Origin: Candidatus Levyibacteriota bacterium
GTDB taxonomy: Bacteria; Patescibacteriota; Microgenomatia; Levybacterales; GWA1-39-11
DNA: 64,000 bases
Reading direction: 5' to 3'
NCBI GenBank assembly: GCA_018062815.1
Contig: JAGORM010000001.1
Coordinates: 160,774-224,773 of the forward strand
The notes below the pieces were generated by a model. The model was not told where the DNA came from and did no database searches. It saw only the letters and a program-made list of their open reading frames with translations. The translations under genes and the position numbers were made by a program. Shown here piece after piece: positions 20,336-25,777 of this stretch. Within the stretch, counting starts at the first letter, position 1. Each line of letters begins with the position of its first letter.

Positions 20336-21403
20336 GTGCGAAAGATATTTGTATTTTTTATTATATTAATCTGTTTTATTGCCATATTTATATTTTATAA
20401 ATCATCACCCCAAGAGCAAACAATTCAACCATCTCAAAAGATAAAAATTGTAAAAACAGAAACTAAAACATCACCTAAAGAAGATTATTTATTTGTTCCC
20501 TACTGGACTATAAATGAAGATATATCATCAAATGAGATGACATTGGTATATTTTGGGGTTATGGGAGGGAAAAATGGAATTGAAAAAAATGAGGAAGGAT
20601 ATAAAAATTTATCTGTATTTGAGAAAAACAAGAATGCAAAAAATACAATATTAGTTTTGAGAATGTTAAATACAGACACCAATCTAGACATATTAAAAGA
20701 TAAAAATATTCAGCAAAAAATTATTGCCGAGACAATATTTCTTGCAAAAAAACATAATTTTTCAGGAATCGTACTGGACTTTGAAACGCAAGGTTTGCCA
20801 TTCAAAACATTACTTGAGAGCATTACGTCAATGCACGCACTTTTTGCAAAACAAACACGTCTATCTGGTCTATCATTTGCTACGCTTTTATTTGGAGACA
20901 CCTTTTATAGAGTACGACCTTATGATGTAGAAAAAATCGCGGATGTGGTAGATCGTGTATATATAATGGCTTACGACTTCAGTAAGGCAAGAGGTGATCC
21001 GGGTCCCAATTTTCCATTGAATGGAAAGGATATATATGGTTATGATTTTAAGACAATGGTTCAGGATTTTTTACATGTTGTGCCTGAACATAAGATCACA
21101 GTTATTTTTGGTATGTTTGGGTATGATTGGAAGATTGATGAGAAAGGAAGGGGTCGTGAAAATGCAGTTTCTAAGAGTACGATCGCTTTTGAAAAATTTA
21201 TGTTAACCTGTGAGGTTGTAAACGCATGTAATGTAATAACGGACAGTAATAAGTCTGGGGAAACTAACATAACGTATGTTTCAGGGGAGAATGAAGATCA
21301 TGTAATTTGGTTTGAGAATTCTGAATCTGTTCTAAGAAAAAAATCATATCTTACTGATTTGGGGTTACAATCAGTTGGCTACTGGGCGTACTCATATTAT
21401 TAA
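20336..21403 (+). CDS. Membrane-anchored glycoside hydrolase family 18-like protein.
   Basis: GTG start. N-terminal TM. YW...GIVLDFE (DxDxE-like catalytic motif), MAYDF, and a C-terminal GYWAYSYY resemble GH18 signatures. Confidence 0.55.
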   Translation: MRKIFVFFIILICFIAIFIFYKSSPQEQTIQPSQKIKIVKTETKTSPKEDYLFVPYWTINEDISSNEMTLVYFGVMGGKNGIEKNEEGYKNLSVFEKNKNAKNTILVLRMLNTDTNLDILKDKNIQQKIIAETIFLAKKHNFSGIVLDFETQGLPFKTLLESITSMHALFAKQTRLSGLSFATLLFGDTFYRVRPYDVEKIADVVDRVYIMAYDFSKARGDPGPNFPLNGKDIYGYDFKTMVQDFLHVVPEHKITVIFGMFGYDWKIDEKGRGRENAVSKSTIAFEKFMLTCEVVNACNVITDSNKSGETNITYVSGENEDHVIWFENSESVLRKKSYLTDLGLQSVGYWAYSYY

Positions 21404-21974
21404 ATTCTTCTTTGCAATAGATTGTTAAGGGGATGGTTTTTGCCAACAGAGAATAAGAATTTTTTTGAGATCCGGTAGAGCTTTTATTTAAAAAACGTAT
21501 AGTATGAGTTTCGGCAGAAAGGGGTGAGTTTATGGTAAAAGCAATCATTGCAACTTTGCTATTTCCCCTTTTTTCAGTACTTTGTGCCTTTAGCTCCAGA
21601 GCAAGCGATGCTCTTCCATATTGTTCGCGTGTTTCCTCAAGCAAGATTGAATAATCGGTACTTTCTCCAAAGAAATTTGGCAGATAAGGGGTAAGTCTTA
21701 CGTTATAAATTACCTCAGGATTATATGACAATTCAATTTGTGCGCTATTAAGGTAGTTACTCTCAGATGAAAGGTAAATAGGGATTTCAAAAGAGGAGTT
21801 ATTGCATGAAGAAGTGATAGTATTTGGGTTAAAATAAAACACAGAAGATGGAGAGTTGAAAACAGATTCTTTCTTTTGCGTTATTGAGTTGAAGGGTGAT
21901 ACATAGGAGAGTAAAAAAAACGTAAGCGTGAGGACAAATAAAGTGATTCCTAAGACGATGACATATTTACTCAT
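21351..21974 (-). CDS. Small anchored/secreted protein with a cohesin-like domain.
   Basis: N-terminal hydrophobic anchor. FEIPIYLSS...AQIELSYNPEVIYNV...VAMIAFTINS aligns with the cohesin hallmark (VRIPVRFSG...CDFVYSYDPNVLEI...GVFATIVAKV). Confidence 0.5.
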   Translation of the reverse strand: MSKYVIVLGITLFVLTLTFFLLSYVSPFNSITQKKESVFNSPSSVFYFNPNTITSSCNNSSFEIPIYLSSESNYLNSAQIELSYNPEVIYNVRLTPYLPNFFGESTDYSILLEETREQYGRASLALELKAQSTEKRGNSKVAMIAFTINSPLSAETHTIRFLNKSSTGSQKNSYSLLAKTIPLTIYCKEEFNNMSTPSSQLIVTPNQ

Positions 21975-21977
21975 GAG

Positions 21978-24479
21978 TTAATCCCCGCCTCTTTCTCTAA
22001 GTTGTCTTAAGAAAATGTTAAGATCTTTCTCGTCTGCTACTCCGTCATCATCAAAGTCTGCAATTGTATCATTGCAGTTATTGTTAATTGCACAATAAAC
22101 TGAGATGTTGTAGTCAAGAATATCAAGTATTTCGTCTTGTGTTAGGTCTCCAACAATTAGTGTTGTAGTTGGAAGAATTACATTGTTACCACTATCTTTT
22201 ATTGTATAAAAACCAGGAATGGATTTTTTAAGCGTAGGAGACCCATCGGCAAAATTCACTTTTAATTGATATGTACCAGGAGGGGTATTTAATATTGGCA
22301 TGTCTCCTATGAATACACCATTTGTGTACGTGACAGGAGTTGTTGTTCGTGAGATAACTTCCCCGTTCTTATCAATAAACTCAATATTTGCGGTTCTTGT
22401 TTTATTAATTGGATTTGTATTTCCCCCTGATCCTATTCCCGGTTGAATAATAGATATTTTTATTGTTCCTCTGGATGAGGATAATGTAGGTGTAGGATTT
22501 GAGGGGGAAGGGGTACTCACTGCAGGCGTGGTTGCAGGTATAGTTGGGGTTGGATTTTGTGGTTGATTTGTTGGAGTTGGGACAGCTGTTGTAACAGTCG
22601 GGGTTGGGTTTTGGTTGTCAGGCGCTAGGGAGTTTACCGCGCGCGCAAGATTTAATCTTGGTCCAATAGGTCTATCAGTTGAGATAACGTCAGCGTTTGA
22701 AACTAATATATTTTTTATCTCATCTGGGGACAGATTTGGATTAATGGATAAGAGCAGTCCTGCAGCTCCTGCCACGTGAGGAGTAGCCATAGATGTACCA
22801 TTAAGGCTTTTATATTGATTTTGTGGCCAAGTAGAAATAATTGATACGCCAGGAGCGCTTATATTAACAATAGAACCATAGTTTGAGAATGATGCCCGTT
22901 GGTCAGATTCAGTAGTTGCGCCAACTACAAATGTACCATTGCAATTTGCAGGAGAACTTGTAGAAGCATCAACTGGTATTCCTCCAGAGACTCCATTTCC
23001 CGCTGCAACTAGAACGCTTACATTAGCATTTTTTGCGTAGTCAACTGCTTCTTGAAATATACCACAAGGAGAATATCCACCGAGACTCATGTTGATAACT
23101 TTAGCTCCATTATCTACTGCATAATGAATTGCTTGAATAATGATAGAGTCATCTCCCTGACATTCTCCGTTGTATTGTCCCATTGCTTTAATTGCCAATA
23201 CCTTTACATTCCAATTTACCCCTACCACTCCAATACTGTTATTGGTTAATGCACCAATTGTACCGGCAACATGTGTTCCGTGTCCGCAATCATCCTGTGA
23301 GTTGTTTGTTCCGTTGAAAAAATTATATCCATTCTCAATATGTCCGATTAAGTCTTCGTGGCTAGAATCTACTCCAGAATCAATAACTGCAACCTTAACA
23401 TTATTATTCCCCTTTGCTTTATTCCAGGCGGTAGGTCCTTGAATTTTTTCCATTCCCCACATTTGTGAAAAGTATGGGTCATTTGGGATTTCTGTTGCTT
23501 GTTTGATTCCATTTTCAACCACAATCTCTACTGTGGGGAGTTTTTTATATTCATCTATCGCTTCCTGTATAGATGAACCGTTGTTTAATGTTATTACTTG
23601 CGCATTTTCTAGGGGCGTTTCATATTTTGTATTTTCAAGTAAGTTTTTTTCTTGAATAAAGCCAATTTTTTCTTTGGTTTCGGCATATAACTCCTGTAAT
23701 ACCATTGGATTTGGGGTTCTTGATACAGAATTTGCCGCATCTATAGCTGCTATCCTTGCCTTCCCAATTATGGGCTGAGAGGCAATTCTTTCTCTTTCTT
23801 GAAGATTTTCTGTCACATCAGTAGGTGTGGTGCCTTGTTTATACTGTACGATTATCTGTTGTTTCGAGCGTTCTATTGGGTTTTCCTCCATAGACTGAAT
23901 GGTTTGAGTTGTCTTAATAGAGTTTGGTGCTGCGTTTTTAACCTGCGGCAGAGCAAGGAATAATTTAATTGCTTTTTTTATGTCAGATCCTGGTCGTAAG
24001 GTTACAAGGTTAGTTGCTGATTGATTTATTTTTGTTGCGTATAAACTTTTTTGAGATATGACACCAGATTCATTTTCAACTTTTGCTATCTGCTGTAATT
24101 GATTAGTGTAGAAAGAGGTCCCTGGTATTTTTCCTGATAATTCCATGAAGAACATTTTAGTTTTATTTATAATTCCTTGAGATTTTTGTTTTCGTTCATT
24201 TAGGTTGGCCTCCAGTTGTAGGGGGGAAAGTCCCGGTTGGTACACAACTATAATTTGAGAAGAGACATTCTTTATTTGATTTGAGGCTATAGAATTTGAT
24301 GCAGCGTAGGAAAACGCATGTATAGAGCTTAATAAAATGAAAAGTATGAGTAAGATAAGACCATTTTTTAACACATATATATAGTAGCCTGCAAGAAAAA
24401 ACTTCGCAATAGGAAAAGCATACAATACTCTTTGTTTTTTAATTTCCCCCTTGACGAGTTTTGAAAGATGTAGTATCAT
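21978..24479 (-). CDS. Subtilisin-like serine protease (S8) with tandem propeptide domains, a Pro/Thr-rich linker and a C-terminal dockerin-like module.
   Basis: Catalytic triad motifs VAVIDSGVD / HGTHVAGTI / GTSMATPHVAG. Two I9-like repeats (QIIVVYQPG.., QIIVQYKQG..). PTPT-rich linker. C-terminal GDLTQDEILDILDY and DFDDDGVADEKDLNIFLRQL Ca-loop-like pair. Confidence 0.85.
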   Translation of the reverse strand: MILHLSKLVKGEIKKQRVLYAFPIAKFFLAGYYIYVLKNGLILLILFILLSSIHAFSYAASNSIASNQIKNVSSQIIVVYQPGLSPLQLEANLNERKQKSQGIINKTKMFFMELSGKIPGTSFYTNQLQQIAKVENESGVISQKSLYATKINQSATNLVTLRPGSDIKKAIKLFLALPQVKNAAPNSIKTTQTIQSMEENPIERSKQQIIVQYKQGTTPTDVTENLQERERIASQPIIGKARIAAIDAANSVSRTPNPMVLQELYAETKEKIGFIQEKNLLENTKYETPLENAQVITLNNGSSIQEAIDEYKKLPTVEIVVENGIKQATEIPNDPYFSQMWGMEKIQGPTAWNKAKGNNNVKVAVIDSGVDSSHEDLIGHIENGYNFFNGTNNSQDDCGHGTHVAGTIGALTNNSIGVVGVNWNVKVLAIKAMGQYNGECQGDDSIIIQAIHYAVDNGAKVINMSLGGYSPCGIFQEAVDYAKNANVSVLVAAGNGVSGGIPVDASTSSPANCNGTFVVGATTESDQRASFSNYGSIVNISAPGVSIISTWPQNQYKSLNGTSMATPHVAGAAGLLLSINPNLSPDEIKNILVSNADVISTDRPIGPRLNLARAVNSLAPDNQNPTPTVTTAVPTPTNQPQNPTPTIPATTPAVSTPSPSNPTPTLSSSRGTIKISIIQPGIGSGGNTNPINKTRTANIEFIDKNGEVISRTTTPVTYTNGVFIGDMPILNTPPGTYQLKVNFADGSPTLKKSIPGFYTIKDSGNNVILPTTTLIVGDLTQDEILDILDYNISVYCAINNNCNDTIADFDDDGVADEKDLNIFLRQLRERGGD
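24451..24479 (+). promoter_or_regulatory. Putative tuf promoter (TTGACG-17-TATCAT).
   Basis: -35 at 24451-56, a 17-nt spacer, -10 at 24474-79. It overlaps the start codon of the divergent subtilase gene. Confidence 0.4.
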
Positions 24480-24486
24480 TCTTTAT

Positions 24487-24510
24487 ACACCTTTAAAAAG
24501 GTGTTTTCTT
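24487..24510 (+). terminator. Hairpin plus U-tract (ACACCTTT..AAAGGTGT then TTTCTTTT) at the predicted +1 of the tuf leader.
   Basis: 8-bp inverted repeat followed by a T-rich run, ~90 nt upstream of the tuf ATG. Confidence 0.4.
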
Positions 24511-24598
24511 TTACTCAGGACAATAAATCCTTAATAAGGAAAGGCTTTCAAGCTAAATTCTAAAAAAACTGAGCAGAACGGAAAGGAATATTTAAAAA

Positions 24599-25777
24599 AT
24601 GGCAACATTTCAAAGAAACAAACCACACGTTAATATAGGAACTATCGGTCACGTTGACCATGGTAAAACCACTTTAACAGCAGCTATCACTACCGTTCTT
24701 GCAAAAAAAGGAATGGCAGAAGCTAGGAAATATGAAGATATAGACAATGCCCCAGAAGAACGAGCTCGTGGAGTTACGATTAACATTTCCCATCAAGAAT
24801 ACGAAACTGAAAAGAGACATTACGCACATATTGATGCTCCAGGACACGCAGATTACATTAAAAACATGATTACAGGAGCTGCACAAATGGATGGAGCAAT
24901 TTTAGTTGTTTCAGCAGCTGATGGTCCAATGCCTCAGACACGTGAACATATACTTCTTGCACGCCAGGTTGGAGTGCCAGCACTTGTTGTTTTCCTTAAC
25001 AAAGTAGATATGGTACAAGATCCAGAGCTCATTGATTTAGTTGAGATGGAAGTACGTGAACTTCTTTCAAAGTACCAATATCCAGGAGATGAAATTCCTA
25101 TGGTTAAAGGATCAGCTCTTAAAGCAACTCAGGGAGATGCTGAAGCTGAAGCTCAGATAATGGAATTAATGGCAAAGGTTGATGAGTATATTCCTACTCC
25201 AGAAAGACCAACAGATAAACCATTATTAATGCCTGTTGAAGACGTTTTCTCAATAAAAGGACGCGGAACAGTTGTTACTGGACGTATTGAGCGCGGAATA
25301 GTAAAAATTAATGACACAGTTGCAATTATAGGTATAAAGCCTACAAAAGAAGTTGTTGTTACAGGTGTTGAAATGTTTAGAAAACAATTGGATGAGGGGC
25401 AAGCCGGAGATAATGTAGGACTTTTGCTTCGTGGAATTGAAAAACAGGATGTAGAGCGTGGACAGGTTATTGCAAAACCAGGAAGTATTACTCCACACAC
25501 AAAATTTGAAGCTGAGGTATATATTTTGACAAAAGAAGAAGGTGGACGCCATACTCCATTCTTCTCTGGATACAGACCACAATTCTATATTAGAACAACT
25601 GATGTAACTGGTGAAATTAAACTTCAAGAAGGCGTTGAAATGGTTATGCCTGGAGACAACGCTAAGATGACTGCTGAGCTTATAGTGCCTGTAGCTATGG
25701 AAGATGGAATGAGATTTGCAATTCGTGAGGGTGGAAGAACAGTTGGAGCAGGAGTTGTTACCAAAATCTTAGCATAA
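24599..25777 (+). CDS. tuf: Elongation factor Tu.
   Basis: [15 protein letters not shown]. 392 aa. Canonical EF-Tu. Confidence 0.97.

What the first reader, a model, noticed from the sequence alone, without database searches (positions are those of the whole stretch)
21351..24479. Candidate cohesin-dockerin pair tethering an S8 subtilase to a small anchored scaffold protein
The 833-aa S8 protease has an N-terminal anchor/signal, two tandem propeptide-like repeats, a Pro/Thr-rich linker, and a C-terminal pair of calcium-loop-like segments (GDLTQDEILDILDY, DFDDDGVADEKDLNIFLRQL) shaped like a type-I dockerin. The co-directional gene immediately downstream encodes a 207-aa protein with an N-terminal hydrophobic anchor. 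A stretch of that protein (FEIPIYLSSES…AQIELSYNPEVIYNV…VAMIAFTINS) aligns well with the cohesin hallmark (VRIPVRFSG…CDFVYSYDPNVLEI…GVFATIVAKV). Together this looks like a minimal, non-cellulosomal cohesin-dockerin module displaying a protease on the cell surface. That would be an unusual find in what seems to be a streamlined genome, and the pair is inserted between fusA and tuf.
Basis: partly seen in the sequence, partly recalled or inferred. Interest (0 to 1): 0.7.

Follow-up and report, generated by a model that had tools for sequence, protein, structure and literature searches.

The report
Protease docked to membrane-anchored cohesin
A tiny uncultured bacterium (Candidatus Levybacteria) encodes a secreted protease whose tail is a "plug" (dockerin) next to a small membrane-anchored "socket" (cohesin), the same plug-and-socket parts that cellulose-degrading bacteria use, here apparently holding a protease on the cell surface.

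Summary

- **The 207-aa protein (21351-21974, minus strand).** It has an N-terminal transmembrane helix followed by a confidently predicted beta-sandwich. All 50 listed Foldseek PDB matches are cohesins or cohesin-like modules. Its own Pfam Cohesin score is below threshold, but its wider family matches Cohesin clearly.
- **The 833-aa S8 protease (21978-24479, minus strand).** It has a signal peptide, two tandem pro-domains, an intact catalytic triad and a Pro/Thr linker.
- **The dockerin.** The window's own dockerin fails Pfam because its first calcium loop is degenerate; orthologues pass.
- **The X-module plus dockerin unit.** The last 170 residues model as one rigid unit. Its best structural matches are the type II X-dockerin dyad of C. 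thermocellum CipA, not a lone type I dockerin.
- **Gene linkage.** In 16 of 17 distinct related loci, a gene ending in this dockerin lies directly beside the anchored cohesin gene, even where the cargo is not a protease.

Binding itself is inferred, not shown. The principle is already known, so this is a new variant. It occurs in a CPR lineage, is anchored by a transmembrane helix, and belongs to a large, mostly unannotated family.

The parts
21978..24479 (-). S8 subtilase gene (833 aa as annotated). It is identical to an NCBI record named 'S8 family serine peptidase [Candidatus Levybacteria bacterium]'.
   Evidence: ORF list. Pfam Peptidase_S8, E 2.5e-60. 100% match to P0010.
24306..24479 (-). 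N-terminal region, residues 1-58. It holds a hydrophobic core (about residues 40-53) followed by an AxA-like site (SYA|A), so it is probably a cleavable Sec signal peptide. An in-frame GTG at 24374 aligns with the start codons of orthologues.
   Evidence: Hydropathy scan and N-terminal comparison with P0011-P0025. DNA read. Cleavage is inferred.
23913..24275 (-). Pro-domain-like repeat 1 (residues 69-189).
   Evidence: Pfam Fervidolysin_NPro-like, 2 stretches. Internal repeat, 30% identity, E 4e-11.
23502..23876 (-). Pro-domain-like repeat 2 (residues 202-326).
22677..23405 (-). S8 catalytic domain (residues 359-601), with triad residues in the motifs DSG (Asp367), HGTH (His400) and GTSMA (Ser563).
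22476..22595 (-). Pro/Thr-rich linker (residues 629-668).
   Evidence: 11 T and 11 P in 40 residues.
22158..22472 (-). Ig-like beta-sandwich 'X-module' (about residues 670-774), packed against the dockerin.
   Evidence: AF2 of the last 170 aa: pLDDT 89, pTM 0.83, 7 strands. Best PDB matches are CipA X-dockerin dyads. An HMM of this module finds it in other cargo proteins next to anchored cohesins.
21981..22157 (-). Dockerin (residues 775-833) made of two Ca-loop plus helix repeats. The first loop (DLTQDEILDILD) is degenerate. The second (DFDDDGVADEKD) is canonical.
   Evidence: Two helices in the AF2 model. Orthologues score 33.1, 28.9 and 24.5 bits against a Pfam Dockerin_1 gathering score of 22.9. 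The window sequence itself gets no Pfam hit. Alignment of orthologues.
21351..21974 (-). Gene for the 207-aa anchored single-cohesin protein, named 'hypothetical protein' in NCBI.
21903..21971 (-). N-terminal transmembrane helix (residues 2-24). Its roughly 20-residue hydrophobic core has no AxA site, so it is a probable signal-anchor.
   Evidence: AF2 helix at residues 2-24. Hydropathy scan. Topology is inferred.
21414..21845 (-). Cohesin-type beta-sandwich (residues 44-187).
   Evidence: AF2 pLDDT above 90 over most of the domain. All 50 listed Foldseek PDB hits are cohesins or cohesin-like modules. Pfam Cohesin 19.7 bits, below the gathering score of 24.1. Family-level Pfam and PDB profile hits.
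21351..21413 (-). Disordered C-terminal tail plus stop codon. It overlaps the convergent GH18 gene by 53 nt.
   Evidence: pLDDT below 50 for residues 193-207. Overlap computed.
20336..21403 (+). Neighbouring GH18-family gene (355 aa, N-terminal hydrophobic segment). It is convergent and present in 10 of the 17 distinct loci, and has no dockerin. It is listed as context, not as a shown part of the system.
   Evidence: Pfam Glyco_hydro_18, E 4e-20. Synteny. No dockerin HMM hit.

Best explanation
This is a two-gene surface-display cassette of a Candidatus Levybacteria (CPR/Patescibacteria) bacterium.

1. The S8 protease is exported through Sec as a pre-pro-enzyme. It loses its signal peptide and its two pro-domains.
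2. The mature enzyme carries a flexible Pro/Thr linker that ends in an X-module plus dockerin dyad.
3. The gene 3 nt downstream, probably co-transcribed, encodes a protein held in the cytoplasmic membrane by an N-terminal signal-anchor helix. It exposes a single cohesin domain on the outside.
4. The dockerin binds that cohesin, presumably in a calcium-dependent way. This keeps the protease on the cell surface instead of letting it diffuse away.
5. For a very small cell with little biosynthetic capacity, retention would keep the released peptides close to its own transporters, or keep the protease aimed at a host surface.

Shown here: the domain identities, the folds, and the conserved gene linkage. 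Inferred: export, topology, Ca dependence, the binding itself, and the physiological role.
For: Cohesin:
- AF2 pLDDT 84.8.
- All 50 listed Foldseek PDB hits are cohesins or cohesin-like modules, best 6kgf_C at E 1.6e-8, target-normalised TM-score up to 0.79.
- Pfam Cohesin is hit weakly by the window protein and 6 of its 8 close homologues, and by 103 of 146 wider family members, best E 4.3e-13.
- The family profile hits solved cohesins, 3l8q at E 8.5e-7.

Dockerin:
- Orthologous C-termini pass the Pfam Dockerin_1 gathering score.
- AF2 of the last 170 aa gives pLDDT 89 and pTM 0.83.
- Foldseek's top 3 hits are CipA XDoc chains.

Linkage:
- In 16 of 17 distinct loci, a gene ending in this dockerin lies directly beside the anchored cohesin gene.
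- This includes 3 of 3 distant family members chosen without knowing their context, plus one more distant member (P0134) chosen for its long contig.
- The linkage follows the X-dockerin, not the protease. Neighbouring cargos in L020, L021, L022 and L024 are a Cys-rich protein, a cohesin-bearing protein, a 500-aa protein with no Pfam match, a VWA/SdrD_B protein and an SdrD_B protein; in L015 the cargo is unidentified because the contig has an assembly gap. All carry the same X-module plus dockerin.

Export and precedent:
- Signal peptides with AxA sites are present in the orthologues.
- Peptidases held on the cell surface by cohesin-dockerin pairs are described for R. flavefaciens (a cysteine peptidase XDoc binding ScaE) and C. 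thermocellum (an S8 double dockerin binding ScaD), in review PMC12484212.
Against: - No binding test was possible.
- The window's own dockerin gets no Pfam hit, and its first Ca loop has Thr at position 3 and Glu at position 6. The close relative L009 has Val at position 3. That loop may therefore not bind calcium.
- The window cohesin is below the Pfam gathering score: 19.7 bits against 24.1.
- Whether the small protein's N-terminal helix is retained or cleaved was not tested with a dedicated predictor.
- Only 64 kb of the genome was seen. Other cohesins or dockerins elsewhere could be the true partners.
- One related locus, L012, has no dockerin gene in the 99 nt available upstream.
Confidence: 0.72

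Rival explanations
1. Both modules are genuine, but they are not each other's partners. The protease dockerin would bind a cohesin encoded elsewhere, for example on a larger scaffold protein. The small cohesin would hold other dockerin proteins. The adjacency would then reflect co-regulation of surface proteins only.
For: Relatives do encode further cohesin-bearing proteins and other dockerin types in the same slot (L021, L024). Many Levybacteria S8 paralogues carry dockerins. Only 64 kb of the genome was searched.
Against: The specific X-module plus dockerin unit sits directly beside this cohesin family in 16 of 17 loci, across cohesin identities down to about 25-30% and across different cargos. 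In L024, the second cohesin protein sits beside a protease with a different C-terminal module. That pattern looks like separate matched pairs.
Confidence: 0.12
2. The small protein's N-terminal helix is a cleaved signal peptide. The cohesin protein would then be secreted and form a soluble complex with the protease, for example as a cap, stabiliser or bridging factor, rather than anchoring it to the membrane.
For: The N-terminus has the n-region plus hydrophobic layout common to signal peptides. No dedicated predictor was run.
Against: The hydrophobic core is about 20 residues long, which is typical of anchors and longer than the 7-15 residues of cleaved signal peptides (general knowledge of Sec signals). 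There is no AxA-type site after it. AF2 models a continuous helix over residues 2-24. By contrast, the protease orthologues have short cores with clear AxA sites.
Confidence: 0.1
3. The small protein is a dedicated regulator of the protease, such as an inhibitor, chaperone or immunity protein, that merely has a cohesin-like Ig fold. The acidic C-terminal loops of the protease would only stabilise it with calcium.
For: Adjacent small genes next to secreted proteases often encode inhibitors (general knowledge). The window protein's Pfam Cohesin score is below threshold.
Against: The small gene's partner changes to non-protease cargos while the X-dockerin stays (L020, L021, L022, L024). In L015 and L024, an S8 protease without this dockerin is not the direct neighbour of this cohesin.
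Confidence: 0.04

Closest known systems
R. flavefaciens ScaE anchoring cohesin with X-dockerin clients, including a putative cysteine peptidase (as summarised in PMC12484212)
   Same: A single-cohesin protein fixed to the cell envelope receives an X-module plus dockerin dyad, and one client is a peptidase. The logic is the same: a plug on the cargo and a socket on the cell.
   Different: ScaE is attached to the wall by a sortase signal (own knowledge), whereas here there is an N-terminal transmembrane helix and no LPXTG motif. ScaE serves a large cellulosome with many clients. Here the client gene sits directly beside the socket gene in a CPR genome, and no carbohydrate-active cargo was seen.
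C. thermocellum CipA type II X-dockerin bound to anchoring cohesins (PDB 2b59, 5g5d, 3kcp)
   Different: Sequence identity is only 13-16%. CipA is a nine-cohesin scaffoldin, not an enzyme. Its receptors carry SLH domains (own knowledge). The window cohesin's best fold matches are type I cohesins, while its family profile hits type II cohesins best, so no type can be assigned.
C. thermocellum S8 protease with double dockerin (Clo1313_0689, PDB 8x39)
   Different: It has a tandem double dockerin rather than an X-module plus single dockerin. It belongs to a cellulosome producer. Its partner gene is not adjacent, as far as the review states.
Non-cellulosomal cohesin and dockerin modules across Bacteria and Archaea (Peer et al. 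2009; Archaeoglobus fulgidus cohesin, PDB 2xdh)
   Same: These show that the two modules occur outside cellulose degraders and with non-CAZyme cargos. 2xdh is among the fold matches at E 1.9e-6.
   Different: The Peer et al. paper could not be read here, so its content is cited from memory. In the library searched, I found no description of a transmembrane-anchored mono-cohesin encoded next to its X-dockerin cargo in CPR bacteria.

Membership tests
Cohesin (Pfam PF00963) | Nine-strand jelly-roll beta-sandwich of about 140 residues | tested here: met
   The AF2 model has pLDDT above 90 over most of residues 44-187. All 50 listed Foldseek PDB hits are cohesins or cohesin-like modules, target-normalised TM-score up to 0.79.
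Cohesin (Pfam PF00963) | Sequence match to the family model above the curated threshold | tested here: inconclusive
   The window protein scores 19.7 bits against a gathering score of 24.1, E 1e-3. At family level the link is clear: 103 of 146 relatives hit Cohesin, best E 4.3e-13, and the family profile hits PDB cohesins at E 8.5e-7.
Cohesin (Pfam PF00963) | Binds a dockerin | not testable with these tools
Only gene linkage supports binding.
Dockerin (Pfam PF00404) | Two repeats of about 22 residues, each an EF-hand-like Ca loop (D-x-[DN]-x-D-G-x-x-[DN]-x-x-D) followed by a helix | tested here: met
   Repeat 2 (DFDDDGVADEKD + LNIFLRQL) is canonical. Repeat 1 (DLTQDEILDILD + YNISVY) keeps positions 1, 5, 9 and 12 but has T at position 3 and E at position 6. 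Both helices are present in the AF2 model.
Dockerin (Pfam PF00404) | Sequence match to the family model above the curated threshold | tested here: inconclusive
   The window sequence gets no hit even at E 10. Orthologous C-termini score 33.1, 28.9 and 24.5 bits (above the 22.9 threshold) and 20.2 bits. Precomputed PF00404 is present on P0017-P0019, P0022, P0024 and P0025.
Dockerin (Pfam PF00404) | Calcium-dependent folding and binding | not testable with these tools
   Inferred from the loop residues only.
Type II X-module-dockerin dyad (CipA-like XDoc) | An Ig-like X-module immediately N-terminal to the dockerin and packed against it as one unit | tested here: met
Type II X-module-dockerin dyad (CipA-like XDoc) | The partner is a type II cohesin (extra helix and beta-flaps) on a cell-anchoring protein | tested here: inconclusive
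   The partner candidate is cell-anchored by a TM helix. Its best fold matches are type I cohesins, with type II somewhat lower. The family profile hits type II cohesins best. The flaps and helix were not examined.
Cellulosome | A multi-cohesin scaffoldin with a carbohydrate-binding module, assembling dockerin-bearing carbohydrate-active enzymes | tested here: not met
   There is one cohesin and one dockerin in the 64-kb window, the cargo is a protease, and no CBM was found. The neighbouring GH18 has no dockerin.
Subtilase (peptidase family S8) | Asp-His-Ser catalytic triad in the S8 order, and a match to the family model | tested here: met
   Pfam E 2.5e-60. Triad motifs DSG (Asp367), HGTH (His400) and GTSMA (Ser563).

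The most novel reading that the evidence does not exclude
The X-dockerin plus transmembrane-anchored mono-cohesin cassette may be a general surface-display system of Levybacteria and related Patescibacteria. The hundreds of small 'hypothetical' anchored cohesins would serve as sockets for swappable cargos: proteases, adhesin-like SdrD_B/VWA proteins, and cohesin-bearing adaptors that build multi-level assemblies. Such a system would do the job that sortase or SLH anchoring does elsewhere, and could mediate nutrient scavenging or attachment to host cells.
Probability: 0.35. Interest if true: 0.7.

Novelty: new variant of a known kind. Interest (0 to 1): 0.45.

Why it matters
CPR/Patescibacteria are very small cells with reduced genomes, thought to live off other cells or scavenged nutrients. 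How they organise their surface is largely unknown.

This locus gives a concrete, testable pair. Two short recombinant fragments should bind each other. The work also assigns a likely role to a large family of about 200-aa proteins (882 clusters at 50% identity).

The result extends cohesin-dockerin display in three ways: to transmembrane-helix anchoring, to one-gene-next-to-the-other pairing, and to protease and adhesin-like cargos in a non-cellulolytic lineage. Matched pairs from such genomes could also supply new orthogonal parts for protein-assembly engineering.

The principle itself is not new.

Tried and rejected
1. Pfam on the window's own C-terminus, both the 163-aa and the 63-aa pieces, gave no Dockerin_1 hit. 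I resolved this through the orthologues.
2. phmmer and a 9-sequence profile of the small protein against PDB sequences found nothing useful. A 146-sequence profile was needed.
3. A word-index homologue search with the C-terminal 167 aa returned nothing, although the full-length query found an identical protein. I treat this as a limit of the index, not as absence.
The A1 scans gave only 3 and 4 loci.
6. Read-through fusion of the two genes was rejected. They are in the same frame here, separated by TAA plus one codon, but they are out of frame in L004, L007 and L011. The second protein also has its own TM start.
7. An alternative genetic code was rejected, because the stop codon is TAA.
8. GH18 as a second dockerin client was rejected, because it has no dockerin HMM hit.
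9. The JGI name 'FliL' for P0003 was rejected, because it is unsupported by any family or fold result.
10. Cluster look-ups to learn the taxonomy of distant family members returned no names.

Full report
**What is there.** The 833-aa protein is at 21978-24479 and the 207-aa protein at 21351-21974. The first ends in TAA. Three bases later the second starts, and the pattern scan found no terminator-like site on the minus strand anywhere in 21000-24700. Co-transcription is therefore likely, but it is inferred. The larger protein is 100% identical to an NCBI entry named 'S8 family serine peptidase [Candidatus Levybacteria bacterium]'. A cluster-mate of the small protein (at least 90% identical) is named 'hypothetical protein ... 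[Candidatus Levybacteria bacterium]'. A related locus comes from a Candidatus Levyibacteriota MAG.

**The protease.**
- Pfam gives Peptidase_S8 at E 2.5e-60 over residues 359-601, plus two stretches of Fervidolysin_NPro-like.
- The two pro-domain-like repeats (69-189 and 202-326) are 30% identical, E 4e-11. The triad motifs DSG (Asp367), HGTH (His400) and GTSMA (Ser563) are intact. The linker at 629-668 is 55% Pro plus Thr.
- The N-terminus has one hydrophobic stretch followed by an AxA-like site.
- Most full-length orthologues start about 35 residues later, with textbook signal peptides such as '...SANA|Q' and '...VSA|N'. An in-frame GTG at 24374 matches their start.
- I therefore read the N-terminus as a cleavable signal peptide, not an anchor. 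This is inferred.

**The protease C-terminus.** The window's own last 63 or 163 residues give no Pfam Dockerin_1 hit, even at E 10. The same region of four orthologues scores 33.1, 28.9, 24.5 and 20.2 bits against a gathering score of 22.9. Six further full-length homologues carry precomputed PF00404.

The alignment explains the miss. The second repeat, DFDDDGVADEKD-LNIFLRQL, is canonical. The first, DLTQDEILDILD-YNISVY, has Thr in place of Asn/Asp at loop position 3 and Glu in place of Gly at position 6. The close relative L009 even has Val at position 3.

AF2 on the last 170 residues, with 15 orthologues, gave pLDDT 89 and pTM 0.83. The model shows a seven-strand beta-sandwich followed by two long helices.
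- Foldseek's three significant PDB hits are all the X-module-dockerin dyad of C. thermocellum CipA: 2b59_B, 5g5d_B and 3kcp_A, aligned over 164-170 columns.

The module is therefore a real dockerin, but it is built as an X-dockerin dyad of the kind known from type II interactions. It is not a lone type I dockerin.

**The small protein.**
- AF2 with 8 homologues gave pLDDT 84.8. The model has a helix at residues 2-24, a short low-confidence linker, a beta-sandwich at 44-187, and a disordered tail.
- All 50 listed Foldseek PDB matches are cohesins or cohesin-like modules of types I, II and III, plus the archaeal non-cellulosomal one. The best is E 1.6e-8, with target-normalised TM-score up to 0.79.
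- By sequence the window protein is just under the Pfam Cohesin threshold: 19.7 bits against 24.1, over residues 59-170.
- The window protein and six of its eight close homologues give the same weak hit.
- An exhaustive profile search found 882 clusters at 50% identity with E up to 1e-3, and 397 with E up to 1e-10. Almost all of the best 150 are 180-225 aa and match along their whole length.
- Of 146 members scanned, 103 hit Pfam Cohesin, best E 4.3e-13.
- The family profile hits solved cohesins, 3l8q at E 8.5e-7.

Membership in the cohesin superfamily is therefore established by fold and by family-level sequence evidence. The hydrophobic core is about 20 residues long and lacks an AxA site. 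This favours a retained signal-anchor over a cleaved signal peptide, but no dedicated predictor was available.

**Are the two parts a pair?** This cannot be shown with the available tools. The strongest evidence is comparative.

I collected 17 distinct loci that encode a member of the small-protein family. In 16 of them, a gene ending in this dockerin lies directly beside the cohesin gene, usually 2-8 nt upstream. Three distant members (P0146, P0160, P0200) were picked without knowing their context, and all three show the pattern. So does P0134, which I picked for its long contig.

The linkage follows the X-dockerin, not the protease:
- In L020 the neighbour is a Cys-rich protein.
- In L021 it is a 508-aa protein that itself contains cohesin-like domains.
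- In L022 there are two neighbouring proteins, one a 500-aa protein with no Pfam match and one VWA plus SdrD_B.
- In L024 it is an 812-aa SdrD_B protein.
- In L015 the cargo is unidentified because of an assembly gap.

All of these end in the same X-module plus dockerin. In L015 and L024 an S8 protease is present in the same slot. It carries a different C-terminal module and is not the direct neighbour of this cohesin.

This pattern argues against the small protein being a protease-specific inhibitor or chaperone. It argues for a plug-and-socket relationship. The one exception, L012, has only 99 nt of upstream sequence, and no dockerin is encoded there. Within the 64-kb window there is no other cohesin or dockerin.

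**Mechanism proposed.**
1. The pre-pro-protease is exported through Sec.
2. The pro-domains assist folding and are then removed.
3. The X-dockerin at the end of the Pro/Thr linker inserts into the single cohesin of the signal-anchored 207-aa protein.
4. The enzyme is held at the cell surface.

The steps shown are the modules, the folds and the linkage. The steps inferred are export, topology, Ca dependence, binding and the purpose. The purpose could be peptide scavenging or action on a host surface. The degenerate first Ca loop in this sub-lineage may mean that only the second loop binds calcium. The helices after both loops stay nearly invariant among orthologues.

**Comparison with known systems.** Cohesin-dockerin pairs outside cellulosomes, and with non-CAZyme cargos, are established. 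Peer et al. 2009 is cited from memory because the paper was not held. Peptidases displayed in this way are also described (review PMC12484212):
- A putative cysteine peptidase of R. flavefaciens binds the surface cohesin ScaE through an X-dockerin dyad.
- An S8 protease of C. thermocellum has a double dockerin that prefers the cell-bound ScaD.

A dockerin-domain protein is among the essential envelope proteins of a cultured Saccharibacterium (PMC10633639).

Several features differ here:
- The lineage is CPR.
- The anchor is an N-terminal transmembrane helix rather than SLH domains or a sortase signal.
- The cargo and socket genes sit strictly side by side.
- The family is large, and the window's own copy carries no functional annotation.

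Full-text searches found no description of such cassettes in CPR bacteria. That is absence in one library, not proof of novelty. This is not a cellulosome: there is one cohesin, no CBM, and no dockerin-bearing carbohydrate-active enzyme.

**Context.** Between them also lie a cupin-like gene, a PGI/SIS gene, a small membrane protein gene, murB, a HAD hydrolase gene and the GH18 gene. The same block occurs in relatives whose small-protein orthologue is only 42-54% identical. It is therefore an old arrangement of this lineage rather than a recent insertion.

**Verdict.** It is a new variant of a known kind and of moderate interest.

Noticed in passing
window 21351-21407 (minus strand) and 21351-21403 (plus strand): The disordered C-terminal tail of the cohesin protein (FNNMSTPSSQLIVTPNQ) is encoded on the opposite strand of the last 17 codons of the convergent GH18 gene, a 53-nt overlap. 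Relatives with the tail show the same 47-53 nt overlap (L001, L004, L006). Relatives without the tail (L007, L015, L024) have no overlap. The tail's conservation may therefore be imposed by the GH18 C-terminus rather than by any function of its own.
   Followed up: partly
L024 942-6552 (same fusA-tuf slot in a relative, 525-kb contig); L015 149-4353 is similar: This is an expanded version of the locus. It holds an S8 protease of 564 aa with a different two-helix C-terminal module that lacks Ca loops. Next comes a 291-aa TM-anchored protein with a cohesin, a Pro/Thr linker and a plain dockerin. Then comes an 812-aa SdrD_B protein ending in the X-dockerin, and finally the anchored cohesin. This may represent two or three separate matched plug-and-socket pairs in one locus.
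   Followed up: partly
L021 99-2296: A 508-aa protein with cohesin-like domains and a C-terminal X-dockerin lies directly upstream of an anchored mono-cohesin gene. This would allow a two-level, scaffold-on-anchor assembly in some relatives.
   Followed up: partly
L022 4001-8160: Here the anchored cohesin gene comes first. It is followed by two genes that both end in the X-dockerin: a 500-aa protein with no Pfam match, and a 628-aa VWA plus SdrD_B protein.
   Followed up: partly
window 24372-24479: The annotated ATG start of the protease adds about 35 residues that most full-length orthologues lack. An in-frame GTG at 24374 gives an N-terminus (M)LKNGLILLILF... that aligns with the orthologue starts (MLKKLFLAIF...). 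An AGGTG-like motif precedes the ATG, so the true start is uncertain.
   Followed up: partly
L013 and L015 (record titles): The MAG records are titled 'uncultured Gammaproteobacteria bacterium'. Their gene content and near-identical proteins match Candidatus Levybacteria/Levyibacteriota records, so the titles look wrong.
   Followed up: no
window 1-44000: GC skew is positive in nearly every 2-kb bin, up to 0.34, where genes are mostly on the plus strand. It dips, with negative AT skew, over the minus-strand protease gene at 22001-24000. The strand asymmetry seems to follow the coding strand.
   Followed up: no
window 20336-21403: The GH18-family gene has an N-terminal hydrophobic segment and sits convergent to the cohesin gene in 10 of the 17 distinct loci (several other contigs end before it). 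It has no dockerin. Its substrate and any functional tie to the protease-cohesin pair are unknown.
   Followed up: partly
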